Sequence record: NC_052661.1
From: Escherichia phage ukendt
Length of the DNA: 64,000 nucleotides
Strand: one strand, 5' to 3'
In this document: positions 7,857 to 31,829 of the stretch, piece by piece
Numbering within the stretch: the stretch's first letter is position 1
Layout of the letters: each line of letters begins with the position of its first letter
Position numbers and translations under genes: made by a program
Notes under the pieces: generated by a model
What the model was told of the DNA's origin: nothing
The model's input: the letters and a program-made list of their open reading frames with translations, nothing else
Databases searched by the model: none

Positions 7857-8849
7857 TTAAATCTTCTCACTCCACCATTGAGGGTTGTTTAAGTACCATT
7901 CAATCGTTGAGTAGAGATCTTGTTCAAATGTAGAGTTTGCACTCCAACCCAGTTCAGACTCTATTTTAGAAGGATTGATTTCATAACGCAAGTCATGTCC
8001 TTTACGATCTTCAACAAAAGTTATCAAGTTGGAAGAAGGGTAGGTTCCTGCTTCTGGATGTACAGCATCCATGTAGTCACAAACCATATAGATGATCTCC
8101 ATATTGGTTTTGGGATTACGTGTTCCAATATTATACGTTTGACCTGGTTCTCCACCTGTTGCCACTTGAAGAATAGCTCGCGCATGATCCTCCACAAAAA
8201 GCCAGTCTCGCACCTGATCGCCTTTACCATACACTGGAATCTTTTTATTCGTCAAGATACTTGTGATGATTTTTGGGATCAGCTTTTCTGGATGTTGATA
8301 AGGTCCAAAGTTATTGGAGCAGTTGGTTATCACAACAGGTAAGTCGTAGGTACGGTGCCAAGCTTTCACAAGATGGTCAGATGCTGCCTTAGACGCACTG
8401 TACGGGCTTGAAGGGGCATAAGCTGTCTCTTCGGTAAAAGGAACGCCAGAGTCTGCCATATCGCCGTACACTTCGTCTGTGGAGACGTGTACGAACATCT
8501 TCAGTTTATTCTTTGGGAGGAGCCTTGCAGCTTCCAATAAATTGTATGTACCAATAATATTGGAGTCGATGAAAGCTCGTGGATTCTTGATAGAATTATC
8601 CACATGACTCTCTGCCGCTAAGTGAATGATGAAATCGGGATTGCACTCTACTACTAAACTTTTGACCTGGGCTTCGTTTGCCAAATCTGTTATACTTAGT
8701 TTAGCGTGAGTGATATCGCCTACATTCTTAATGTCTGCTGCATAGCTCATCTTATCAACGACAAAAACTTCGTTATTGGGATCTTGACAAAGAGAGCGCA
8801 CCACGGCGCTCCCAATAAAACCAAGACCACCTGTTACCAGATAGCGCAT
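7857..8849 (-). CDS. rmlB: dTDP-glucose 4,6-dehydratase (RmlB)
   Basis: [21 protein letters not shown]-binding motif, SDR YxxxK (YSASKAAS), 330 aa. Confidence 0.85.
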
Positions 8850-19309: not shown

Positions 19310-20188
19310 TTATTTAAGGATTGTTGCTTTGGTTAAATCTTCCATCAGACCTCGAATCTCATTGAAGCACAGAAGGACTGAAGCTTCAATACTGCCTTCT
19401 TCGTCTGCAAAATATTTCGGAAAACGTAGTTTAGAAAGTTTAAACTCTTTATCCACTACAAAATCTACAACACCGTCATATTCAAGACCGATTGCAACAA
19501 CATCTTTACCATCTTCTTTTAGTTCGACAGCTTTAGACTCGTATAGGGATTCTTTACTCCAAACAACAACGCCCTCGCTATCCTCCATTTTGATATAATT
19601 TCCTAGAGTAATACGATCTGCTTCGTGATTCTCCAGCAATTCACCAAAACCTTTTACAATAGCTTCTTCGTGCACACTAAAACCTACCGAAGGGAAAGTC
19701 CCCAGAACGGAACGGAGGAAAGAAGTAATCTCTTCTGCAACCTTTTTACTTCCATTAAGAACATAAAGAAGATTCGTAGTTTTATCCAAGACAACATAGT
19801 TAAAGAAATCTTCAGGTTCTGTTTCAGGCAATAGTGCAAATTCAATATCTTCTTTCATTGCTTTGACTACTTCTTTATCGACATAAAACTCTTTACCCTC
19901 GCTCTCCATATCCTGACGCATTTCTTCTAGACGTTCATTCAGAATACGTTTAACTTTCTTTTTATCTACCTTCTTCACAGATTGACCTACATTAAGCAGT
20001 TCAAGATCTGAAAACTCTTTTACAAATTTGGAGTCATCTTCGAAACGAACAAGACCGATAGTGTGTGACTGGGAGCCTTCTGCTGTTACAAATTCCAGAG
20101 GAATATCTGTAATGTTGTTAAGGGATGCTACAGAAGCATTGTCACCAACAACCATAGGCAGAGCGGATTTAAAAGATTTTACAAACAT
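19310..20188 (-). CDS. hypothetical protein (292 aa), possibly RdgC-like
   Basis: ORF; weak overall resemblance to recombination-associated RdgC; not verified. Confidence 0.45.
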   Translation of the reverse strand: MFVKSFKSALPMVVGDNASVASLNNITDIPLEFVTAEGSQSHTIGLVRFEDDSKFVKEFSDLELLNVGQSVKKVDKKKVKRILNERLEEMRQDMESEGKEFYVDKEVVKAMKEDIEFALLPETEPEDFFNYVVLDKTTNLLYVLNGSKKVAEEITSFLRSVLGTFPSVGFSVHEEAIVKGFGELLENHEADRITLGNYIKMEDSEGVVVWSKESLYESKAVELKEDGKDVVAIGLEYDGVVDFVVDKEFKLSKLRFPKYFADEEGSIEASVLLCFNEIRGLMEDLTKATILK

Positions 20189-21362: not shown

Positions 21363-22490
21363 TTACTCTGCTGGTTCCCAAGTGCCTGGGATCATTTCTC
21401 GAATACGAACACCAACAGGTTTTGTTGGAATACCTTCATCTGAAAATTCTTCATACTCTATTTCAACGAACTGATTAATCAAGGTAGAAGCATTCTCTGC
21501 TTTACGATAATTGATAGTCTCATGAGCATCTTTACGCATTAAGAATTCGACTACTTTACCATTTTCCATCTCACCTGTCAACACTCCATCACCATTTTTA
21601 TCACTTTTTGAATTTGTTACTTTAACTTCAAGGGTGTGGCGAGGCTTACGTTTAATAACGTCATAAGAACGTTTATCAAATTCGTAAACTCCGTTAGCAT
21701 TACGATATACTACACCTTCAGCTTTCTCAAGTAAAGCTTTTTCATAGAAAGCATCAAACTGTTCTTGGTTTTCAATATACTCTGTATGAACTACGCAAAT
21801 AAGCTCGTCAAGACCATAATCTTCAACTACTGCCTTAAGAGCAGCAAGAACATCAACACGTTTTTCAAACGGTAGATCTGGAACTGGAATATCATATACG
21901 TAATAATTCAGCAAAGGTGTATTTGCATTATGCTTCTTCCAGGCACTGTTAATTTGTTGCAGACTAAGGACACCTAACCCAGCAAACACTTCACCATCAA
22001 GAGGATGACCAACAACTTCACTAATAAAGTTTGGAATACCTTTCCAATGAGGTGGCAGGTTATACACTTCCCCAGCTTTTGATAAACACTCTCCTTTCAT
22101 GTTAATCATAGAACGTAACCCGTTCAGTTTGTATTGTGCATAACCAGGGAACACAACCCTTTCAGGATAATCTTTATAATCCTGGCATTTCATTGGTGTG
22201 GAAGGAACATGGTTTTCAGCTTCTTCTTTTGTTTTATAATAGCCATTCTTTAACTGTTTTGTCCATTTGGCAAAAGCTTCAAGTTCAGCTTGTTCTTCCG
22301 GTGTTGTTTCATTGGAACGACCAATGTTTTTTGCTTCTGCTGTATAAGATTTTTCTGTGATTTTTCCACCTACTCTTCCATGAGCTACAGTAACAACTGC
22401 ACCATCTGTATACACTGTCCACTGTTTAAGTTTTCCTTTTGAATCTTTACCATACAGCGTTTGATTTGTTTGTTGCATCAGTCCTCCCAT
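21363..22490 (-). CDS. ATP-dependent polynucleotide ligase (covalent nucleotidyltransferase; RNA- or DNA-ligase)
   Basis: motif I YKLNGLR (KxNG), motif III LDGEVF, motif IV EGVVYR, motif V DVIKRK; 375 aa. Confidence 0.6.
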   Translation of the reverse strand: MGGLMQQTNQTLYGKDSKGKLKQWTVYTDGAVVTVAHGRVGGKITEKSYTAEAKNIGRSNETTPEEQAELEAFAKWTKQLKNGYYKTKEEAENHVPSTPMKCQDYKDYPERVVFPGYAQYKLNGLRSMINMKGECLSKAGEVYNLPPHWKGIPNFISEVVGHPLDGEVFAGLGVLSLQQINSAWKKHNANTPLLNYYVYDIPVPDLPFEKRVDVLAALKAVVEDYGLDELICVVHTEYIENQEQFDAFYEKALLEKAEGVVYRNANGVYEFDKRSYDVIKRKPRHTLEVKVTNSKSDKNGDGVLTGEMENGKVVEFLMRKDAHETINYRKAENASTLINQFVEIEYEEFSDEGIPTKPVGVRIREMIPGTWEPAE

Positions 22491-23232: not shown

Positions 23233-23637
23233 TTATTGAAGTTTAAGTGAACCACGAAGACGTTTCTCTTGCTGATCACGGATATATTGTGGAACCTCGT
23301 GAATTGAATCATTACCGTGCCTATTTTCAACAACTAAAGAGATAACTTGATAACCAAACTCTTCAGCAAGAGCTAGATAAGGTTTAAGTTCTTTCTCTGT
23401 GGTTGAAGTATTAGAAACAATAATCTTGTTAAGATTAGATGCCATAGCATCACGAACAATACCCTGACACCATGCGTGTGCTTTACCTACATTTTCTGGC
23501 TTCCAATCGTAAACACCACTCTCTGTGTAATGATATTGATCTGCCTCACAGATAGGCCAATAACCTTCAGAAATAATTTCTGCTACTGTAGATTTACCAG
23601 CACCTGAAACGCCACGTAAAATGATAAGTTGTTTCAT
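23233..23637 (-). CDS. polynucleotide 5'-kinase (Pnk-type P-loop kinase domain)
   Basis: P-loop GVSGAGKST; KIIVSNTSTTEKE parallels T4 Pnkp kinase VIISDTNLNPERR; TAATG overlap with ligase stop. Confidence 0.65.
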   Translation of the reverse strand: MKQLIILRGVSGAGKSTVAEIISEGYWPICEADQYHYTESGVYDWKPENVGKAHAWCQGIVRDAMASNLNKIIVSNTSTTEKELKPYLALAEEFGYQVISLVVENRHGNDSIHEVPQYIRDQQEKRLRGSLKLQ

Positions 23638-24570
23638 TTATCCTCCAAAAAAGTTTTCGATTTTTTCACGTCGCTCTTGCTGATTTAAAGCAGCCCATTG
23701 AATCTTCGTAAAATTATTTCGAATCCATTCTAACAAAGCGTAATATTCTTCGTCAACCATTTGTTTGGCATTTTTTGGATTATCCCAAATCAGATCCCAC
23801 TTTTTATCTCCACCGCGCATAAGAAACTTCTTAGTAAGATAGTGTGGTGATTTAATTTTTAAAAGTAAGTTGAACGGATAGTTTGTTTCACGAACTACAA
23901 ACCCTTCGTGTTTACAATGTTTAGACATTTCAACAACATCTGAAAACTTAACCATTGGATGAACTTCAGGACGCTTAAATTTGGTGACAGAAGCAATTCC
24001 ATCAAGAGCACCTTCAGGTAACATAAAACTTGTCCCATCAGGATTTTGAATTCTGGCACCAATTAAGTATGCACCTGGTTCTTCTTCGACAATATGCGGA
24101 TCAGAAGGATCACAGATTTCAAAAAGGAAAGTTGCTTTTGCGCTCTCTGTCCATTTGATGAAATGTTCTATGTCATCACACTCTGAAACAATATGATTCT
24201 TTGCAATACTTGCAAAATCTGATTCAAGGCTTCCTGTTGTCGATACAATAAGTTGACCTTTATATACACCTACAGAGGCCATAAAACCATTTACTTTACG
24301 AACCACATCTACAAGTTCATCCGCTGGTAGATCTGTGCCATTCTCAAAACGATTAAAAATCTTAGTGAAAGGCCAAATAACAACATTGTCATCAGCATCA
24401 ACAACGATTCCGCGACATTCTAGAAGACGAGAATCAATGCTCCATAAGTTATCCCAGAAAACTTTGTTCTTATACTTAAGAACAGATAGACCAGAATACT
24501 CTCCTTCTTTATATGTTTTCTTATGAACTAAACCTTTTTCAACCAAATCGTCGCAATTAAATTTAGTCAC
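23638..24570 (-). CDS. RNA ligase, Rnl1 family
   Basis: LLECRGIVVDADDN vs T4 Rnl1 ALECRGIMFEMDGE; motif I RKVNGFMASV vs TKEDGSLVST; PFTKIFN vs PMEKFFN; GTG start. Confidence 0.75.
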   Translation of the reverse strand: MTKFNCDDLVEKGLVHKKTYKEGEYSGLSVLKYKNKVFWDNLWSIDSRLLECRGIVVDADDNVVIWPFTKIFNRFENGTDLPADELVDVVRKVNGFMASVGVYKGQLIVSTTGSLESDFASIAKNHIVSECDDIEHFIKWTESAKATFLFEICDPSDPHIVEEEPGAYLIGARIQNPDGTSFMLPEGALDGIASVTKFKRPEVHPMVKFSDVVEMSKHCKHEGFVVRETNYPFNLLLKIKSPHYLTKKFLMRGGDKKWDLIWDNPKNAKQMVDEEYYALLEWIRNNFTKIQWAALNQQERREKIENFFGG

Positions 24571-24571
24571 A

Positions 24572-25123
24572 TTACTCTCCTTTGATTATTTTGTGATGGT
24601 CTACAGTCACGATATCTCGTTTACTCATCATAGAAATTATCTCATCAAAATGCAAGATTTTTCCGTGTGCATCCCAACCCACATCTAACATTTTACCATA
24701 AGCTTCATCAGGGAAAGATCCGTGGGAATGCCCATGTAGCATGATTGATCCACGACCTTGTTTATTCCAGGAGGCAATAGGGTAATGACTTAAGACGAAG
24801 AACAGCTTCTGGTATTTCACTTCGTCATAATACACCACTTCGCCATACTCTGCAAGCACTTCTCGGTGTTTGCTGTAGTCATGGTTCCCAACACAGTAGG
24901 TGATATCTCCTTGGAGACGGGAAGCAATTTTACGGGTATCTTCTTCAGTTCCGAAACAGAAGTCGCCCAAATGCCACATCTTAACACCAGGAGTAGTAGC
25001 ACATTTGTTCCATGCTTCGATCAAGGCTTCTGTCATGTGGTCCATATCTTCCCACGGACGATATTCAGGAGCAAACTCTCGAATACGTTTATGCATAAAA
25101 TGCAAATCGCTTGTAATAAACAT
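24572..25123 (-). CDS. calcineurin-like metallophosphoesterase (candidate RNA 2',3'-phosphoesterase)
   Basis: SDLHF (DxH), LGDF (GD), GNHDY (GNHD), LHGHSHG; 183 aa; separated from ligase stop by 1 nt. Confidence 0.7.
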   Translation of the reverse strand: MFITSDLHFMHKRIREFAPEYRPWEDMDHMTEALIEAWNKCATTPGVKMWHLGDFCFGTEEDTRKIASRLQGDITYCVGNHDYSKHREVLAEYGEVVYYDEVKYQKLFFVLSHYPIASWNKQGRGSIMLHGHSHGSFPDEAYGKMLDVGWDAHGKILHFDEIISMMSKRDIVTVDHHKIIKGE

Positions 25124-25479
25124 TAGTATAATCCCTCGCTAAATAATTCATGATCGTGACCATTACGCTCATGGTCGATCTGGTCAGCATTTTCCGCGAT
25201 GATGTAAGCATCCGCACGACTCCACCAATTGTAATACTGATCGATAAAGCCTTGATTATCTGGTGTGCACAAAGTTTTGTTGATTACACCTGCTTCTTTC
25301 AACACGTTTAACTGTGCATATAGTACAGGATTTGCATGTCGAACACAAGGAATAATTAACTCTTCACCATTATTCAAAATATACTTATTTGCAGCACAGA
25401 CGATAACACGTTGCGCATAATGACCCTCACCCATCCAGGTAAGAGGTTGGTAACAAATATTGTTTTCAATACCACTCAT
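25123..25479 (-). CDS. hypothetical protein (118 aa)
   Basis: ORF with SD GAGGAGGA. Confidence 0.5.
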   Translation of the reverse strand: MSGIENNICYQPLTWMGEGHYAQRVIVCAANKYILNNGEELIIPCVRHANPVLYAQLNVLKEAGVINKTLCTPDNQGFIDQYYNWWSRADAYIIAENADQIDHERNGHDHELFSEGLY

Positions 25480-25485
25480 TGTTTC

Positions 25486-25629
25486 CTAATCCTCCTCTCT
25501 TAAGTTATCCTCGAAAAAACTAGTGTCTGGAAGTAAAAGATCATTACTTGTGTCGGGCCAATCCTCTTCTTCTCGGTAGATAAAGTAACCTTCGTCCTCT
25601 TCTTGTTCCGACCAAACCGAATGATGCAT
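25486..25629 (-). CDS. small acidic protein (47 aa)
   Basis: hand-translated MHHSVWSEQEEDEGYF...; SD AAGGAGAG. Confidence 0.35.
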   Translation of the reverse strand: MHHSVWSEQEEDEGYFIYREEEDWPDTSNDLLLPDTSFFEDNLREED

Positions 25630-25638
25630 GTTCTCTCC

Positions 25639-25995
25639 TTAATAGTGCACACGAATCATTTTAATACCATAACGCAGCATGGATTCTTTTGCAAGCATGA
25701 ATTTATCCCCAGCGGCGGGATTAGAAGTATGCACGAAAATGGTAGGTGAACCAAAGCAAGGTTTACCAAACGCCAAAAGTTCTTCCAGGCGCAGGAAAAC
25801 ATCATACCCATCTTGGTCAGAATCTTCACCCAAATCGTTGTCAAAATGCCACTCGTCTACAAAACGATAACCCTTCTGCACCTCGTTCATGTAGCGAGAG
25901 GCAAGAAGTTCCTGTGATGTTTTAAACCAGATTGCATCTGGACAACCATAATCTTTTGGATCACGTAAATCATCAAGCCAAATAATAGTACCCAT
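25639..25995 (-). CDS. hypothetical alpha/beta-type protein (118 aa)
   Basis: N-terminus MGTIIWLDDLRDP; sits next to the RNA-repair cassette; family not confirmed. Confidence 0.5.
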   Translation of the reverse strand: MGTIIWLDDLRDPKDYGCPDAIWFKTSQELLASRYMNEVQKGYRFVDEWHFDNDLGEDSDQDGYDVFLRLEELLAFGKPCFGSPTIFVHTSNPAAGDKFMLAKESMLRYGIKMIRVHY

Positions 25996-29511: not shown

Positions 29512-29541
29512 TTGACAAACGTATCCTTCATATGTTAGGAT
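29512..29541 (+). promoter_or_regulatory. promoter TTGACA-N18-TAGGAT with extended TG
   Basis: ctaTTGACAaacgtatccttcatatgtTAGGAT; upstream of the tRNA array leader. Confidence 0.4.
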
Positions 29542-29751: not shown

Positions 29752-29826
29752 GGCCCTGTAGCTCAATGGGAGAGCTGTCGGCTCATAACCGATAGGTAGC
29801 TGGATCGAAACCAGCCAGGGCCACCA
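29752..29826 (+). tRNA. tRNA-Met/Ile2 (anticodon CAT)
   Basis: manual cloverleaf: acceptor GGCCCTG/CAGGGCC, D-stem GCTC/GAGC, anticodon loop CTCATAA, encoded CCA; acceptor resembles tRNA-Ile2. Confidence 0.75.
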
Positions 29827-29828
29827 AC

Positions 29829-29903
29829 GTCTTTATGGTGTAATGGATAGCACAGGAGTCTTCTAAACTCTTAGTCAAGGTTCGATTCCTTGTAAAGACA
29901 CCA
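29829..29903 (+). tRNA. tRNA-Arg (anticodon TCT)
   Basis: acceptor GTCTTTA/TAAAGAC, anticodon loop CTTCTAA, T-arm CAAGG-TTCGATT-CCTTG, CCA. Confidence 0.75.
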
Positions 29904-30099
29904 GAACATTTTAACATGAATTAGCTCAAGTGATTTGAACCCACTACTGATCATGGTGGCAGAGAATGAGGTAAGTATGTCAGACATTATAAACAAAGGC
30001 CACGGTTATATTAGAAGACATAAATGCTCGAAGAGCACCGTTCGCTGAGAACGGGGGTTGGTGGAGTCACCATTCATGGTAAAATGTTTTAAAAAACTA

Positions 30100-30128
30100 T
30101 TGACAACTAACACTATTTTATGTTAGAT
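30100..30128 (+). promoter_or_regulatory. promoter TTGACA-N18-TAGATT with extended TG
   Basis: ctaTTGACAactaacactattttatgtTAGATT; upstream of the tRNA-Ser genes. Confidence 0.45.
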
Positions 30129-30137
30129 TATAAGCAT

Positions 30138-30228
30138 GGAAGGGCAAATCGACGTGGCGACGAAAACGGTCTTGAAAACCGCCGAGCTTGAAAGAGCCTT
30201 GGGAGTTCGACTCTCCCTCCTTCCGCCA
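30138..30228 (+). tRNA. tRNA-Ser (anticodon TGA), class II
   Basis: anticodon arm ACGGT-CTTGAAA-ACCGC and long variable arm as in E. coli tRNA-Ser(UGA); 3' end TCCTTCC-G-CCA; D-region irregular. Confidence 0.6.
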
Positions 30229-30232
30229 GATT

Positions 30233-30318
30233 GGTAGATTGGTGAAATGGTAGCCACGACAGTTTGCTAAACTGTAGTCGGAAACGGCGTGTAGGTTCGA
30301 GTCCTACATCTACCGCCA
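30233..30318 (+). tRNA. tRNA-Ser (anticodon GCT), class II
   Basis: acceptor GGTAGAT/ATCTACC, anticodon arm ACAGT-TTGCTAA-ACTGT, long variable arm, G73, CCA. Confidence 0.75.
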
Positions 30319-30448
30319 AGTTCTTTTTAATGTAGCTTACTTTAGCAGAGTAAATCTTCGGCAAGTGGCGGTAACCACTTTACCGATACCTCATAGTTAG
30401 TGGTGTGAACACTGGCTATTTTAAAAAGAATTTAAATATTAGTATTTA

Positions 30449-30536
30449 GGTGAGTTAATTCCGTAGGGGTAGCGGGGCAGACTGTAAATCTGTTATCATT
30501 GCGATTCGGGTGGTTCGACTCCATCACTCACCACCA
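30449..30536 (+). tRNA. tRNA-Tyr (anticodon GTA), class II
   Basis: acceptor GGTGAGT/ACTCACC, anticodon arm GCAGA-CTGTAAA-TCTGT (as E. coli tRNA-Tyr), long variable arm, A73, CCA. Confidence 0.7.
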
Positions 30537-30542
30537 AATTAA

Positions 30543-30628
30543 GATGAGTTGGCTGAATGGTTTAAGCGGCGGACTGTTAATCCGTGTTCGAAAGAACAAT
30601 ATAGGTTCGAATCCTATACTCATCGCCA
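30543..30628 (+). tRNA. class-II (Ser-type) tRNA with anticodon GTT (Asn codons)
   Basis: acceptor GATGAGT/ACTCATC, 3-bp D-stem GCT/AGC, anticodon arm GCGGA-CTGTTAA-TCCGT, 15-nt variable hairpin GTTC-GAAA-GAAC, T-arm ATAGG-TTCGAAT-CCTAT, G73, CCA. Confidence 0.6.
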
Positions 30629-30635
30629 GAATTAT

Positions 30636-30712
30636 GGACTTGTAGAGTTAAGGTAAACCCCCAGTCGCCAATAGGCTTCTGGAATTGCAGGTATCGAATC
30701 CTGCCGAGTCCC
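30636..30712 (+). pseudogene. degenerate tRNA-like element
   Basis: acceptor-like GGACTTG/CGAGTCC and T-arm-like GCAGG-TATCGAAT-CCTGC, but no canonical anticodon arm and no CCA. Confidence 0.25.
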
Positions 30713-30718
30713 AGCATT

Positions 30719-30793
30719 GCTCCTATAGTATAATGGCTATTACAACGGTTTTGTAATCCGTGGATCTCTGTTCGATTCAGTGTGGGAGCACCA
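30719..30793 (+). tRNA. tRNA-Thr (anticodon TGT)
   Basis: acceptor GCTCCTA/TGGGAGC, anticodon loop TTTGTAA, T-loop TTCGATT, CCA; T.T mismatches in anticodon and T stems. Confidence 0.5.
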
Positions 30794-31065
30794 ACACAAC
30801 ATTAAGAGCACTGTGATTGATCGTCGTATCCTGTGCACAAGGTCTGCTCGAAAGACAGTGTTCTTAGTATTGTGTTGATCACAAAAAGAGTCACCCGAAA
30901 CTTGACCGGAGTAGGGTTGGATGGGGCAAAATGAGAAGCGGCTCTCCCATCGACAGCAACGAAGAATAATATTTGACTTTGGTTTTGTATTATTTAAGTT
31001 AGCTTACCGAACGTAGGGCTAGTCACCCAACGGGATACTCGTCACTGTCCCAATCAATAAAAGTC

Positions 31066-31095
31066 TTGACAACAAATAGTAAAATGTAGTATAGT
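31066..31095 (+). promoter_or_regulatory. promoter TTGACA-N18-TATAGT
   Basis: cTTGACAacaaatagtaaaatgtagTATAGT, ~12 nt before tRNA-Gly. Confidence 0.45.
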
Positions 31096-31106
31096 AAAGA
31101 TATAGG

Positions 31107-31180
31107 GCGTTCTTGGTGTAGCGGTAGCATTCCGTCCTTCCAAGTCGGCGGCACGAGTTCGATCCTCGTAGAACGCTCCA
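31107..31180 (+). tRNA. tRNA-Gly (anticodon TCC)
   Basis: acceptor GCGTTCT/AGAACGC, anticodon loop CTTCCAA, T-arm ACGAG-TTCGATC-CTCGT, CCA. Confidence 0.6.
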
Positions 31181-31277
31181 AATTATTTAATAAAGGGTTG
31201 CCAGAAAACTTTCTCTTTTACTCATGGTTTTCTCCTTCTCTCACACTTCTTCTGGTTGCCCTTCATTAAATGATTTT

Positions 31278-31353
31278 TGGTTTGTAGTGTAGTCCGGTAG
31301 CACACGACACTTTGACTGTCGTAGGTTTGGTTCAAATCCAGACAGACCAGCCA
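31278..31353 (+). tRNA. tRNA-Gln (anticodon TTG)
   Basis: U1-A72 acceptor TGGTTTG/CAGACCA (as in E. coli tRNA-Gln), anticodon arm CGACA-CTTTGAC-TGTCG, G73, CCA. Confidence 0.7.
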
Positions 31354-31358
31354 TATAA

Positions 31359-31435
31359 CGGAATTTAGCTCAGTTTGGTAGAGTGTACGCTTTGGGAGCG
31401 TATTGTCGCAGGTTCGAATCCTGCAATTCCGACCA
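31359..31435 (+). tRNA. tRNA-Pro (anticodon TGG)
   Basis: acceptor CGGAATT/AATTCCG, D-arm TAGCTCAGTTTGGTAGAG, anticodon arm TACGC-TTTGGGA-GCGTA, T-arm GCAGG-TTCGAAT-CCTGC, CCA. Confidence 0.8.
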
Positions 31436-31441
31436 ATTAAA

Positions 31442-31515
31442 TGTTTCGTAGTTCAATGGTAGAACCCACGACTGATAATCGTGAGACACAAGTTCGATTC
31501 TTGTCGAAACAACCA
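31442..31515 (+). tRNA. tRNA-Ile (anticodon GAT)
   Basis: acceptor TGTTTCG/CGAAACA, anticodon arm CACGA-CTGATAA-TCGTG, T-arm ACAAG-TTCGATT-CTTGT, CCA. Confidence 0.75.
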
Positions 31516-31517
31516 GT

Positions 31518-31587
31518 TTCCCGTTAGACTTACAGGATAAGAGTTCCACAGCTTATTGTGATGCTGGTTCGAATCCAGCACGGGATA
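31518..31587 (+). pseudogene. degenerate tRNA-like element
   Basis: good T-arm GCTGG-TTCGAAT-CCAGC and D-arm-like region, but short aberrant anticodon arm, 1-72 mismatch and no CCA. Confidence 0.25.
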
Positions 31588-31593
31588 CATAAT

Positions 31594-31672
31594 AGCGGGA
31601 TAGAGGAGTCTGGTCGTCCTCGCCAGTTTCATATGCTGGAGATCATTGGTTCAAATCCGATTCCCGCCTCCA
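31594..31672 (+). tRNA. tRNA-Met (anticodon CAT), 1-72 mismatched
   Basis: acceptor AGCGGGA/TCCCGCC (A1.C72), D-stem GAGG/CCTC, anticodon arm CCAGT-TTCATAT-GCTGG, T-loop TTCAAAT, CCA. Confidence 0.6.
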
Positions 31673-31787
31673 AATATCGCTTGCCAGCGGTATCTTTGAA
31701 GACCTTGCCTGGTTCCTTCTAAGATGGAGGGGTGCGACTCCTTAACGCACAATTATAATAAAGCATTTCAAATTAACAGTATTTATT

Positions 31788-31810
31788 AGCCTCCTTATTG
31801 GAGGCTTTTT
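31788..31810 (+). terminator. intrinsic terminator closing the tRNA array
   Basis: AGCCTCC-ttatt-GGAGGCT followed by TTTTT. Confidence 0.7.
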
Positions 31811-31829
31811 GCTATCTATTGAATAAAAC

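What the first reader, a model, noticed from the sequence alone, without database searches (positions are those of the whole stretch)
29752..31672. Array of 12 tRNA genes with two degenerate tRNA-like elements and internal promoters
Manual folding gives tRNAs for Met/Ile2(CAT), Arg(TCT), Ser(TGA), Ser(GCT), Tyr(GTA), the GTT class-II tRNA, Thr(TGT), Gly(TCC), Gln(TTG), Pro(TGG), Ile(GAT) and a second Met(CAT) with an unpaired 1-72 position, all with encoded CCA. Most decode A/U-ending codons that are rare in GC-richer hosts. Two further elements (30636..30712, 31518..31587) keep T-arm and acceptor-like pairing but lack a normal anticodon arm and CCA. Internal TTGACA-type promoters (30100, 31066) and a strong terminator at 31788 frame the array. 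Next to an RNA-repair cassette the array could serve both codon supply and replacement of host-cleaved tRNAs.
Basis: seen in the sequence. Interest (0 to 1): 0.5.

Follow-up and report, generated by a model that had tools for sequence, protein, structure and literature searches.

The report
Phage tRNA island with tRNA mimics
This is the already-annotated 12-gene tRNA cluster of a phAPEC8-like E. coli phage; it mainly supplies tRNAs for codons the phage over-uses, but it also holds two conserved non-decoding tRNA look-alikes and an asparagine tRNA with an unusual extra arm, and no paper in the searched library discusses either.

Summary
Window 29752-31672 (+) holds 12 tRNA genes, all with encoded CCA. 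ARAGORN, Rfam adds Tyr-GTA, and Ser-TGA is called by tRNAscan-SE in a 98%-identical GenBank record. The window is a Phapecoctavirus, and the same array is already annotated in deposited genomes.

- **Framing:** TTGACA-type promoter-like sites lie at 29512, 30100 and 31066. A terminator lies at 31788.
- **Codon supply:** this is well supported. The eight codons most over-used relative to E. coli are all read by seven of these tRNAs.
- **RNA repair:** a kinase, an Rnl1-type ligase, a phosphoesterase and a cREC protein lie 3.7-6.5 kb upstream.
- **Element 1 (30636-30712):** this is not decay debris. It is an orthologue of phage T5 'RNA3', sits 2-7 nt after tRNA-Asn in 27 of 31 loci, and its stems covary.
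- **Element 2 (31518-31587):** this belongs to a family shared with rV5-like phages and phiEB49.
- **The 86-nt GTT tRNA:** it has the host tRNA-Asn anticodon arm and G73. It also has a 4-bp GAAA-capped extra arm, an architecture found in hundreds of phage genomes.

The functions of the mimics and of the extra arm are untested. The whole is an ordinary island with some under-studied parts.

The parts
29512..29541 (+). Promoter-like site (TTGACA, 18 nt, TG-extended TAGGAT) upstream of the first tRNA
   Evidence: Consensus scan. It has the same tATTGACAA...TATGTTAGRAT layout as the 30100 site (read).
29752..29826 (+). tRNA with CAT anticodon, most likely tRNA-Ile2 (lysidine type, reads AUA)
   Evidence: ARAGORN. 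Rfam 64.5 bits. tRNAscan-SE labels it 'Ile-CAT' in ASO2A. It has C4:G69 and C5:G68 like E. coli ileX (the TilS determinants are from my own knowledge). AUA is 2.9-fold over-used.
29829..29903 (+). tRNA-Arg(TCT)
   Evidence: 66.3 bits. AGA is 3.6-fold and AGG 2.1-fold over-used.
30100..30129 (+). Internal promoter-like site (TTGACA, TG-extended -10)
   Evidence: The site is conserved in VEcB/UAB_1 ahead of their Ser-TGA (82% over 50 nt).
30138..30228 (+). tRNA-Ser(TGA), class II, with an atypical D region (one extra nucleotide before the D stem and an A.A pair)
   Evidence: Best Rfam match is tRNA-Sec at 37.4 bits, below the gathering score of 47. tRNAscan-SE calls it in ASO2A. It is homologous to VEcB and T5 Ser-UGA. 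MFE fold.
30233..30318 (+). tRNA-Ser(GCT), class II
   Evidence: 56 bits.
30449..30536 (+). tRNA-Tyr(GTA), class II, A73
   Evidence: Rfam 39 bits. Annotated tRNA-Tyr in ASO2A. Annotated tRNA-Tyr homologues at 77-93% identity in T4-like and rV5-like phages.
30543..30628 (+). 86-nt tRNA with GTT anticodon and a long variable arm (GTTC-GAAA-GAAC followed by 3 unpaired nt); most likely a functional tRNA-Asn
   Evidence: 62.1 bits. It shares 19 nt (positions 25-43, the whole anticodon arm) and G73 with E. coli tRNA-Asn. Family-wide covariation is shown.
30636..30712 (+). tRNA-like element 1: orthologue of phage T5 'RNA3'. It has a 7-bp acceptor, a 5-bp T stem, an 8-nt T loop (TATCGAAT), a conserved TAGAGTTAA..AAACC segment and an extended hairpin in place of an anticodon arm. 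It has no CCA.
   Evidence: Fold. Alignment with VEcB and T5 rna3. Covariation table. Position after tRNA-Asn. No Rfam tRNA match.
30719..30793 (+). tRNA-Thr(TGT)
   Evidence: 55.6 bits. ACA is 4.2-fold over-used. The anticodon stem reads U36-A-A-U-C-C41 (read).
31066..31095 (+). Internal promoter-like site (TTGACA, 18 nt, TATAGT; 11 of 12 matches)
31107..31180 (+). tRNA-Gly(TCC)
   Evidence: 56.1 bits. GGA is 2.2-fold over-used.
31278..31353 (+). tRNA-Gln(TTG)
   Evidence: 54.9 bits.
31359..31435 (+). tRNA-Pro(TGG)
   Evidence: 67.9 bits. CCT is 2.8-fold over-used.
31442..31515 (+). tRNA-Ile(GAT)
   Evidence: 72.2 bits.
31518..31587 (+). tRNA-like element 2: acceptor and T arm, an invariant D-like segment (CGTTAGRCTTAYAGGATAAGA), and a short hairpin (CACA/TGTG with a 6-nt loop) in place of the anticodon arm. 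The 3' end reads ACA, not CCA.
   Evidence: Fold. Nine-sequence alignment across three phage families. Distribution. No Rfam tRNA match.
31594..31672 (+). tRNA with CAT anticodon, A1.C72 mismatch, U73 and an 11-nt D loop; same family as the tRNA that T5's curated record annotates as initiator fMet
   Evidence: 47.2 bits. Alignment. The 1:72 position is mismatched in all three phages (A.C, U.C, U.U).
31788..31812 (+). Intrinsic terminator-like hairpin (7 bp, 5 of them G-C) followed by a T-run, closing the island
   Evidence: The equivalent site is annotated as a terminator in ASO2A.
23233..25995 (-). RNA heal-and-seal cassette on the opposite strand: P-loop kinase (23233-23637), Rnl1-type RNA ligase (23638-24570), calcineurin-like phosphoesterase (24572-25123) and a cREC cyclic-phosphate-processing domain protein (25639-25995)
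   Evidence: Pfam: PF13671 at 2.7e-10, PF09511 at 3.8e-15, PF12850 at 3.4e-5 (below its cut-off), PF20274 at 3.4e-13.

Best explanation
The region is the tRNA and small-RNA island of a Phapecoctavirus.

**Transcription and processing.** Three sigma-70-type promoter-like sites (29512, 30100, 31066) would drive polycistronic precursors that end at the terminator at 31788. Host RNase P and 3' exonucleases would cut these into 12 mature tRNAs, which need no CCA addition because all encode CCA. The processing steps are inferred from what is established for T4 and T5.

**Main function.** The island's main job is to top up the host tRNA pool for codons that this 39% G+C phage uses far more than E. 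coli does. The codon match is shown here.

**Likely second function.** A subset probably also serves as replacements that host tRNA-cleaving defences cannot easily remove: Thr-UGU, Asn-GUU and Tyr-GUA. They would work together with the nearby kinase, ligase and phosphoesterase repair genes. This is inferred from the literature.

**The GTT tRNA.** It most likely works as tRNA-Asn. It carries both known E. coli asparagine identity elements (GUU and G73) and an anticodon arm identical to the host's. Its short GNRA-capped extra arm is a selected, phage-typical addition whose role is unknown.

**The two extra elements.** They are non-decoding tRNA mimics kept by selection. They retain the acceptor/T-arm half that RNase P and other tRNA-handling proteins recognise, but they have no anticodon loop. 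My best guess, at about 0.35, is that they are released as stable tRNA-shaped RNAs that compete for or bind a tRNA-recognising factor. About 0.3 goes to the view that they merely serve as processing handles for their neighbours. About 0.2 goes to the view that they are slowly decaying relics.
For: - **tRNA calls:**
- **Identity of the phage:** 98-99% identical to AV126, ESCO13 and ASO2A, which carry the same annotated tRNAs.
- **Promoters and terminator:**. The 30100 promoter is conserved across genera.
- **Codon match:**. The top eight over-used codons are all covered by array tRNAs.
- **Repair genes:**
- **Host-identical Asn arm plus G73:**. Asn identity is the anticodon plus G73, and it can be transplanted onto another tRNA body (PMC9976931).
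- **Extra arm under selection:** 44 distinct arm sequences in 62 viral contigs. Of these, 39 have stems of 3-4 bp, 31 have GNRA loops and 34 have one of two fixed junction geometries. The same feature is seen in at least 10 phage genera.
- **Element 1:** double compensatory changes at 4 of 7 acceptor pairs and 4 of 5 T-stem pairs across three clades. It lies 2-7 nt after tRNA-Asn in 27 of 31 loci, whatever the type of that tRNA-Asn. Its T5 orthologue is annotated 'putative tRNA-like RNA' among eight stable RNAs of unknown function in the T5 tRNA cluster.
- **Element 2:** the D-like and T segments are invariant in nine sequences from three phage families, with covarying acceptor, T stem and hairpin.
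- **Counter-defence precedent:** PMC12409363 and the OLD tRNase preprint.
Against: - No expression, processing or charging data exist for this phage. Every step after the DNA sequence is inferred.
- The count of promoter-like sites is not above the shuffled expectation.
- The E. coli codon table was recalled from memory, not computed.
- The window's tRNA-Asn and tRNA-Thr keep the UAAUC|C sequence at the AriB cleavage site. Host tRNA-Asn, which has that site, is a weak AriB substrate, so resistance is not evident from sequence.
- In the PARIS paper a T5 relative's own tRNA-Asn did not protect it. I did not establish which type of tRNA-Asn that phage carries.
- The window copies of both mimics lack CCA, whereas the T5, rV5-like and phiEB49 copies have it. 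The hairpin loop of element 2 varies by indels within the genus. Both facts fit partial decay.
- Most long-arm Asn tRNAs (56 of 59) have no RNA3-like neighbour, so the two are not obligatorily coupled.
Confidence: 0.8

Rival explanations
1. The island is a plain codon-supply cluster. The two extra elements are tRNA pseudogenes on their way out, and the long arm on tRNA-Asn is a neutral insertion with no function.
For: - Codon supply alone explains seven of the 12 tRNAs.
- Both window elements have lost CCA, and the hairpin loop of element 2 changes length within the genus.
- phiEB49's copy of element 2 is still called a tRNA (Val-AAC) by ARAGORN, as expected if the family descends from a true tRNA.
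- Long-arm GTT tRNAs also occur sporadically in unrelated cellular genomes, which suggests that insertions at this site are tolerated.
Against: - Element 1 is conserved between Demerecviridae and Stephanstirmvirinae with many double compensatory stem changes and an invariant 14-nt segment. Decay would not preserve that.
- Element 2 keeps 21 invariant D-segment bases across three phage families.
- The Asn extra arm shows 44 different sequences with the same size, the same loop class and the same junction geometry. That is a signature of selection on shape.
Confidence: 0.2
2. The island is primarily a counter-defence arsenal. Its tRNAs exist to replace host tRNAs destroyed by anticodon-arm nucleases such as PARIS AriB, OLD, retron-associated nucleases and colicin-like toxins. 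The extra arm and the mimics are shields or decoys against those nucleases. Codon matching is secondary.
For: - Host Thr-UGU and Asn-GUU are AriB targets, and phage T5 Lys, Thr and Asn tRNAs together neutralise PARIS (PMC12409363).
- Viral Thr-UGU tRNAs rescue phages from the P2 OLD tRNase.
- Asn, element 1 and Thr are adjacent here. In VEcB the order is Lys-Tyr-Asn-element 1-Thr.
- Extra GNRA-capped hairpins also occur on phage Thr-UGU (about 97 T5-like records) and on a Lys-UUU. Lys, Thr and Asn are the three AriB targets.
- The PARIS authors suggest that some viral tRNAs may act as competitive inhibitors.
- The repair cassette lies nearby.
Against: - The strongest signal in the data is the codon match.
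- The window lacks Lys-UUU, which is the prime AriB target.
- The AriB site sequence is unchanged in the window's tRNA-Asn.
- Bas32's Thr-UGU, a strong OLD rescuer, is an ordinary 75-nt tRNA, so rescue does not require an extra arm.
- No cleavage data exist for any long-arm tRNA.
Confidence: 0.3
3. The GTT class-II tRNA is charged with serine, or with both serine and asparagine. It would then put serine at AAC/AAU codons as deliberate or tolerated mistranslation.
For: - Serine identity rests on the long variable arm, does not depend on the anticodon, and is helped by G73 (PMC9976931). The tRNA has a long arm and G73.
- Its arm (4 bp plus GAAA) is the same size as the arms of the phage's own Ser tRNAs.
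Against: - It carries the full known Asn identity set and a host-identical anticodon arm.
- It is the only GTT tRNA in this phage and in the other long-arm-carrying arrays examined here (CC31, JD18, Bas32, VEcB/UAB_1). Asn codons make up 5.7% of phage codons, so serine insertion would damage the phage's own proteins.
- The arm emerges with 0 unpaired 5' and 3 unpaired 3' nucleotides, unlike this phage's Ser-GCU (1 and 2), so its orientation probably differs (read; inference).
- Position 2:71 is A:U here, not the G:C that I recall as a SerRS determinant.
Confidence: 0.08

Closest known systems
Bacteriophage T5 tRNA region (24 tRNA genes plus stable RNAs RNAI, RNAIII, RNAIV, RNA1, RNA2, RNA2H, RNA3 and RNAX; GenBank NC_005859)
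   Same: - tRNA genes are interspersed with small stable RNAs, several of them annotated 'tRNA-like', and with multiple internal promoters.
- Element 1 is an orthologue of T5 RNA3 and keeps its place directly after tRNA-Asn.
- The second CAT tRNA matches T5's annotated fMet tRNA.
- The Ser-UGA tRNAs are homologous.
   Different: - The island is half the size and has no homing endonuclease genes inside it.
- tRNA-Asn is the long-arm type, whereas T5's is a 78-nt class-I tRNA with an altered anticodon stem.
- The window's RNA3-like copy has a longer hairpin and no CCA.
- No other window spacer matches a T5 stable RNA by BLAST.
Bacteriophage T4 tRNA cluster (8 tRNAs plus species 1 and 2 stable RNAs)
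   Same: - Seven of the eight T4 anticodons are present here: Gln-UUG, Gly-UCC, Pro-UGG, Ser-UGA, Thr-UGU, Ile-CAU and Arg-UCU (T4 list as in PMC4810235).
- tRNAs are tightly spaced, as in T4's dimeric precursors.
- Unexplained stable RNAs sit inside the cluster.
- The phage also encodes Rnl1-type ligase and kinase functions.
   Different: - Leu-UAA is absent.
- Ser-GCU, Tyr, Asn, Ile-GAU and an initiator-like tRNA are added.
- All tRNAs here encode CCA, whereas some T4 tRNAs need CCA added (my own knowledge).
- There is no sequence similarity to the T4 species 1 and 2 RNAs that I could test.
Class II (long variable arm) tRNAs: bacterial Leu, Ser, Tyr and Sec
   Same: The GTT tRNA has a base-paired extra arm between the anticodon stem and the T stem, a three-pair D stem with a non-standard G13.A22 pair, and G73 as in tRNA-Ser.
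   Different: - The anticodon is GUU, which belongs to an amino acid whose cellular tRNAs are class I.
- The arm is short (3-4 bp).
- Its junction geometry is 0/3 unpaired, which differs from that of the Ser-GCU tRNA in the same array.
Phage T5 tRNA variants that neutralise PARIS (PMC12409363)
   Same: The same anticodons (Thr-UGU, Asn-GUU) are carried by a virulent coliphage, so the same host targets could be bypassed.
   Different: - The T5 variants escape through base changes at or near the 40|41 cleavage site. The window's tRNA-Asn has the host sequence there and differs through an added arm instead.
- Lys-UUU is missing from the window.
- Nothing was tested for this phage.

Membership tests
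Canonical tRNA (Rfam RF00005 / ARAGORN cloverleaf) | Covariance-model score at or above the gathering score of 29 bits | tested here: met
   Eleven of 12 score 39-72 bits. Ser-TGA fails this test.
Canonical tRNA (Rfam RF00005 / ARAGORN cloverleaf) | The same test applied to Ser-TGA (30138-30228) | tested here: inconclusive
   There is no RF00005 hit at gathering. Its best match is the tRNA-Sec model at 37.4 bits, below 47, and ARAGORN is silent. However, tRNAscan-SE calls it in ASO2A, and it aligns with VEcB and T5 Ser-UGA.
Canonical tRNA (Rfam RF00005 / ARAGORN cloverleaf) | The same test applied to elements 1 and 2 | tested here: not met
   Neither gives an RF00005 match at E<=10 or an ARAGORN call. 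Neither has a 7-nt anticodon loop.
E. coli-type tRNA-Asn (for the GTT tRNA) | GUU anticodon and G73 discriminator, the transplantable identity set (PMC9976931) | tested here: met
   Both are present. The whole anticodon arm (positions 25-43) is identical to host tRNA-Asn.
E. coli-type tRNA-Asn (for the GTT tRNA) | Class-I body with a 5-nt variable loop | tested here: not met
   The variable region is 15 nt with a 4-bp stem and a GAAA loop.
E. coli-type tRNA-Asn (for the GTT tRNA) | Aminoacylation with asparagine by AsnRS | not testable with these tools
   This needs a charging assay.
tRNA-Ser (for the GTT tRNA) | Long variable arm plus G73, independent of the anticodon | tested here: met
   This is what makes serylation a formal possibility.
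tRNA-Ser (for the GTT tRNA) | Acceptor-stem determinants and Ser-type arm orientation | tested here: inconclusive
   Position 2:71 is A:U here and varies across the family. The junction geometry is 0/3, against 1/2 in this phage's Ser-GCU. The rules for SerRS are recalled from memory and were not checked here.
Phage T5 RNA3 family (for element 1) | The TAGAGTTAA(2-3 nt)AAACC segment, an 8-nt T loop (YATCRAAT), an acceptor plus T helix, and a position directly 3' of tRNA-Asn | tested here: met
Phage T5 RNA3 family (for element 1) | Encoded 3' ACCA, as in T5 | tested here: not met
   The window reads C-AGCA after the acceptor helix and VEcB reads A-ATAT.
Bacterial initiator tRNA-fMet (for the CAT tRNA at 31594) | Unpaired 1:72 | tested here: met
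   A1.C72 here, U.C in VEcB and U.U in T5's annotated fMet tRNA.
Bacterial initiator tRNA-fMet (for the CAT tRNA at 31594) | Three consecutive G:C pairs at the bottom of the anticodon stem | tested here: not met
   The stem is CCAGU/GCUGG (alignment 10). The requirement itself is from my own knowledge.
tRNA-Ile2 (lysidine) (for the CAT tRNA at 29752) | CAU anticodon with C4:G69 and C5:G68 | tested here: met
   Read. tRNAscan-SE labels it Ile-CAT in ASO2A. The TilS determinants are from my own knowledge. Modification cannot be tested here.
T4-type RNA heal-and-seal system | Rnl1-family ligase and a polynucleotide-kinase-type P-loop domain | tested here: met
   PF09511 at 56.8 bits and PF13671 at 41.1 bits, both above their cut-offs.
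T4-type RNA heal-and-seal system | End-healing phosphoesterase | tested here: inconclusive
   PF12850 scores 24.3 bits, below its cut-off of 27. A cREC cyclic-phosphate domain protein is also present (PF20274, 50.5 bits).

The most novel reading that the evidence does not exclude
The short GNRA-capped extra arm on phage tRNA-Asn(GUU) is an anti-defence device. Comparable extra hairpins on phage Thr(UGU) and Lys(UUU) would have the same role. The arm lets the phage keep a host-identical anticodon arm, so that AsnRS and the modification enzymes still work. At the same time it would sterically exclude host nucleases that cut the anticodon stem next to the variable region, such as PARIS AriB at 40|41 or related TOPRIM tRNases. 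The RNA3-like mimic that always rides behind tRNA-Asn would be a companion decoy or competitor for the same kind of factor.
Probability: 0.2. Interest if true: 0.75.

Novelty: new member of a known kind. Interest (0 to 1): 0.38.

Why it matters
The 12 tRNAs add nothing new. They are already annotated in near-identical genomes and behave as the codon-supply model predicts.

Three side results do matter, because they give concrete handles on open questions about why phages carry tRNAs.

1. One of T5's 'stable RNAs of unknown function' has covarying orthologues in an unrelated myovirus subfamily and is locked to tRNA-Asn. It is therefore functional and can be studied comparatively.
2. A second tRNA mimic family spans three phage families.
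3. A tRNA-Asn with an added arm occurs in hundreds of phage genomes, labelled simply 'tRNA-Asn'. Its shape is clearly under selection, yet no paper in the searched library mentions it.

Host tRNA-Asn and tRNA-Thr are now known targets of bacterial immune nucleases. These variants are therefore ready-made test substrates for how such nucleases recognise tRNA and how phages escape.

Tried and rejected
- **Ser-TGA as a selenocysteine or allo-tRNA.** This was prompted by the Rfam tRNA-Sec match. I rejected it because the anticodon is UGA (reading UCA), the helix lengths are 7/5, the score is below the gathering score, and the homologues are ordinary Ser tRNAs.
- **Element 2 as a plain tRNA-Val pseudogene.** This was prompted by phiEB49's annotation. 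I did not adopt it because the 'anticodon' AAC is not conserved, loop sizes run from 3 to 7 nt, and the D and T segments are invariant. Descent from a true tRNA remains likely.
- **BLAST of all window spacers against the T5 tRNA region, including its stable-RNA genes (L010)**. There was no match apart from short T-arm-like stretches. Only RNA3 is related to element 1, and that was found by alignment.
- **Searching E. coli genomes with the long-arm tRNA**. Nothing was found. I verified the host tRNA-Asn sequence separately.
- **The lead that strong OLD rescue by Bas32/Bas33 Thr tRNAs reflects an extra arm.** Bas32's Thr tRNA is a normal 75-nt tRNA, so this gives no support. I did not identify the Bas33 and Bas34 genomes.
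- **IMG/VR pattern scan for element 2**. It found only two contigs, so the family could not be widened there.
- **Five of the 33 IMG/VR hits for the element 1 motif** (L013, L019, L028, L035, L036). They lack a T arm and were discarded as chance matches.
- **RNAalifold on spacer 31181-31277**. The alignment put the closing stem out of register. The covariation I see there is by eye only.
- **Literature searches for a long-arm tRNA-Asn in phages**. They found nothing, but the library lacks most subscription journals, including the 1980s T5 tRNA papers.

Full report
**What the window is.** The 2.6 kb around the finding is 98-99% identical to many Escherichia phages of the genus Phapecoctavirus, such as AV126, ESCO13, ASO2A and phAPEC8. 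These are myoviruses of about 150 kb in the subfamily Stephanstirmvirinae. The core of the finding is therefore real and already on record.

**Check of the observation.**
- ARAGORN tRNAs.
- The Rfam tRNA model calls those 10 plus Tyr-GTA at 39-72 bits.
- Ser-TGA (30138-30228) is the one weak call. Its best match is the tRNA-Sec model at 37.4 bits, below that family's threshold. The cause is an odd D region, with one extra base before the D stem and an A.A pair. It is still called in ASO2A. It follows a promoter that is conserved in the sister genus. It also aligns with the Ser-UGA tRNAs of VEcB and T5. T5's record notes that its copy becomes an effective suppressor when the anticodon is changed.
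- All 12 genes encode CCA.
- The consensus scan finds perfect TTGACA sites at 29512, 30100 and 31066. It also finds the terminator at 31788. The overall number of promoter-like hits is no higher than in shuffled sequence, so these sites rest on their quality and, for 30100, on conservation.

**Codon supply.** I counted codons in 55 long ORFs of the window (15,895 codons, 38.7% G+C) and compared them with an E. coli K-12 table recalled from memory.
- The eight codons with the highest phage-to-host ratio are ACA (4.2), AGA (3.6), ATA (2.9), CCT (2.8), TCT (2.8), ACT (2.7), GGA (2.2) and AGG (2.1).
- All eight are read by array tRNAs: Thr-UGU, Arg-UCU, the first CAT tRNA read as Ile2, Pro-UGG, Ser-UGA and Gly-UCC.
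- Gln-UUG also fits, since CAA is 1.6-fold over-used.
- Tyr and Asn codons are moderately enriched (1.4-1.5 fold summed).
- Ser-GCU, Ile-GAU and Met are not enriched at all.

The codon-supply model thus explains seven of the 12 tRNAs well and the remaining five poorly.

**The two CAT tRNAs.**
- The first has C4:G69 and C5:G68 like E. coli ileX. tRNAscan-SE labels it Ile-CAT. It most likely reads AUA after lysidine modification.
- The second has A1.C72, U73 and an xGCGGG acceptor. It aligns with the tRNA that T5's curated record calls the initiator. The 1:72 position is a mismatch in all three phages compared, with different bases each time.
- The second lacks the three G:C pairs of bacterial initiators, so its role in initiation is possible but not established.

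**The RNA-repair neighbourhood.** Four genes lie on the opposite strand, 3.7-6.5 kb upstream:
- a P-loop kinase (PF13671);
- an Rnl1-type RNA ligase (PF09511);
- a calcineurin-like phosphoesterase, below Pfam's cut-off;
- a cREC cyclic-phosphate-processing domain protein (PF20274).

**Element 1 (30636-30712).**
- *Structure.* It folds as a 7-bp acceptor helix stacked on a 5-bp T stem with an 8-nt T loop. An extended hairpin stands where the anticodon arm would be.
- *Counterparts.* A counterpart sits at the same place, between Asn and Thr, in Justusliebigvirus. Phage T5's record annotates a 73-nt 'RNA3, putative tRNA-like RNA' immediately after its tRNA-Asn, and this aligns with element 1.
- *Covariation.* A motif scan of IMG/VR plus the loci already in hand gave 12 distinct variants in 31 loci, falling into three clades. 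Acceptor pairs 2-5 and T-stem pairs 1, 2, 3 and 5 show changes on both sides that keep the pair. The segment TAGAGTTAA..AAACC is invariant.
- *Linkage to tRNA-Asn.* In 27 of the 31 loci the element lies 2-7 nt after tRNA-Asn(GTT). In two of the other four (L012 and L020) ARAGORN called no Asn. In L025 the locus had no called upstream tRNA within the window examined. L015 dropped out of the structural parse because the locus ends inside the element. This holds whether that tRNA-Asn is T5's 78-nt class-I form or the 83-86-nt long-arm form.
- *The reverse does not hold.* Of 59 diverse long-arm Asn tRNAs in IMG/VR, only three are followed by the element.
- *3' end.* T5-type copies end in ACCA, and the window copy does not.

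**Element 2 (31518-31587).**
- BLAST finds it in the Phapecoctavirus records, in rV5-like phages at 80-84% identity, and in the siphovirus phiEB49, where it is annotated tRNA-Val.
- In a nine-sequence alignment, the 21-nt D-like segment and the T arm are invariant. The acceptor covaries at three positions, and the T stem changes G:C to A:T. The central hairpin keeps pairing while its loop runs from 3 to 7 nt.
- Only phiEB49 has a 7-nt loop.
- The rV5-like and phiEB49 copies encode CCA. The Phapecoctavirus copies read ACA or ACC.

Neither element matches the Rfam tRNA model even at E<=10. Both are best described as conserved, non-decoding tRNA mimics. What they do is unknown. I rank a trans-acting, tRNA-shaped ligand or competitor slightly above a mere processing handle, and both above a relic.

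**The GTT tRNA (30543-30628).**
- *Fold.* It is a clean class-II fold: a three-pair D stem with G13.A22, a standard anticodon arm, a 4-bp extra stem capped by GAAA, three unpaired bases, and then the T arm.
- *Relation to host tRNA-Asn.* I verified the host tRNA-Asn sequence against 5,425 E. coli genomes. The phage tRNA shares with it a 19-nt block covering positions 25-43, and also G73. According to the tRNA identity review, the anticodon plus G73 are the asparagine identity elements and can be transplanted onto another tRNA body. The same review says that serine identity rests on the long arm, ignores the anticodon and is helped by G73. A risk of serylation therefore exists on paper.
- *Why Asn is more likely.* I consider Asn charging far more likely. 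This is the only GTT tRNA in the phage, and in the other long-arm-carrying arrays examined. Asn codons are 5.7% of phage codons. The arm also leaves the core with a different junction geometry (0 unpaired 5', 3 unpaired 3') from the phage's own Ser-GCU (1 and 2).
- *Distribution.* BLAST gives 756 phage records, of which 577 match at full length with the Epseptimavirus copy as query. They include T5-like phages, Jiaodavirus, Karamvirus, Winklervirus, Alcyoneusvirus, Novosibvirus, Henunavirus and a Pseudomonas jumbo phage.
- *Selection on shape.* In IMG/VR, 62 hits carry 44 different arm sequences. Of those arms, 39 have 3-4 bp stems, 31 have GNRA loops, and 34 have one of two junction geometries. 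The shape is conserved while the sequence is free, which is the mark of selection.
- *Possible origin.* The Erwinia-phage copy looks like a host-type class-I tRNA-Asn with a hairpin inserted.
- *Not phage-only.* A scan of 185,579 species genomes gave 20 contigs. They include three Micromonosporaceae and several Saprospiraceae MAGs with their own kinds of arm.
- *T5 itself.* T5 has a class-I tRNA-Asn with an altered anticodon stem.

**Link to bacterial immunity.**
- A 2025 paper shows that the PARIS nuclease AriB cuts host Lys-UUU, Thr-UGU and, more weakly, Asn-GUU between positions 40 and 41. It also shows that T5's three counterparts together neutralise PARIS. That paper never mentions a variable arm.
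- A 2026 preprint shows that the P2 OLD protein is another TOPRIM tRNase, countered by viral Thr-UGU tRNAs.
- Here Asn, element 1 and Thr are adjacent. In VEcB, Lys and Tyr precede them.
- Extra GNRA-capped hairpins also occur on an 87-nt Thr-UGU in about 97 T5-like records. One also occurs in the D loop of an 87-nt Lys-UUU in an Erwinia phage.

This pattern suggests the extra hairpins could block such nucleases, but I have no direct support for that.
- The window's tRNA-Asn keeps the host sequence at the cut site.
- Bas32's strongly protective Thr tRNA is an ordinary 75-nt tRNA.
- A T5 relative's own tRNA-Asn failed to protect it in the PARIS study.

I therefore give this reading a probability of about 0.2.

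**Verdict.** The finding is correct in nearly every detail and describes an ordinary, already-annotated phage tRNA island of the T4/T5 kind. Its most useful contents are the parts that annotation ignores:
- two selected tRNA mimics, one of them an orthologue of a T5 stable RNA of unknown function;
- several conserved structured spacers;
- a selected long-arm tRNA-Asn architecture that no paper in the searched library mentions.

Noticed in passing
window 30319-30432 (+): The spacer after tRNA-Ser(GCT) is a conserved RNA of about 115 nt with three hairpins inside a 12-bp closing stem. It is also present in Justusliebigvirus and rV5-like phages, with five pairs changed on both sides. It is unannotated and has no Rfam match.
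   Followed up: partly
window 29904-30098 (+): The 195-nt spacer between Arg and the 30100 promoter folds into a multi-branch structure closed by a 17-bp stem (z = -3.75; none of 200 shuffles folds as well). No match was found among the fetched relatives outside Phapecoctavirus.
   Followed up: partly
window 30794-31062 (+): The 269-nt spacer between Thr and the 31066 promoter has no + strand ORF of 40 aa or more. It begins with a long near-perfect hairpin (30794-30875); z = -2.17. VEcB has a 107-aa ORF at the equivalent place.
   Followed up: partly
window 31181-31277 and 31673-31760 (+): The Gly-Gln spacer and the stretch after the last tRNA are conserved in VEcB/UAB_1. Each has an invariant core (for example GGAGGGGTGCGACTCCTTAACGCAC). 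The Gly-Gln spacer also has a closing stem that covaries by eye, although the automatic alignment misplaced it.
   Followed up: partly
L003 (phage VEcB) 904-1015, 1084-1170, 3600-3745: These are further odd tRNA-like stretches in the sister genus. One has an Arg-TCT-type anticodon arm, a T arm and an acceptor, but no D arm and a long variable region.
   Followed up: no
L011 and about 97 T5-like phage records; L054:78-164: An 87-nt tRNA-Thr(UGU) carries an extra GGA-GUAA-UCC arm. An 87-nt tRNA-Lys(UUU) carries a GCG-GAGA-CGC hairpin inside its D loop. Together with Asn, these are the three PARIS/AriB target anticodons.
   Followed up: partly
L056-L075 (cellular genome contigs): Long-arm GTT tRNAs occur in Micromonospora/Verrucosispora (90 nt, three species) and in Saprospiraceae MAGs (8-bp palindromic arm, two copies per contig). 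They also occur in Azoarcus, Devosia, Flavobacteriales and Nanoarchaeia assemblies. Two MAG copies (L068, L075) closely resemble phage types and may be phage contigs binned into MAGs.
   Followed up: partly
window 29752-29826 (+): The Ile2-like CAT tRNA has A instead of T at T-loop position 54 (GG-ATCGAAA-CC). This is unusual for a bacterial-type elongator tRNA.
   Followed up: no
window 25639-25995 (-), 21363-22490 (-), 19310-20188 (-): A cREC cyclic-phosphate-processing receiver domain protein sits next to the RNA ligase. Further upstream are a second ATP-dependent ligase (PF01068) and an RdgC-family protein.
   Followed up: partly
L001 (ASO2A) 7957-8051 against window 31353-31359: Many relatives carry an insertion of about 90 bp between Gln and Pro that this window lacks. 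VEcB has an HNH endonuclease gene at that junction, so the island is a hotspot for insertion and deletion.
   Followed up: no
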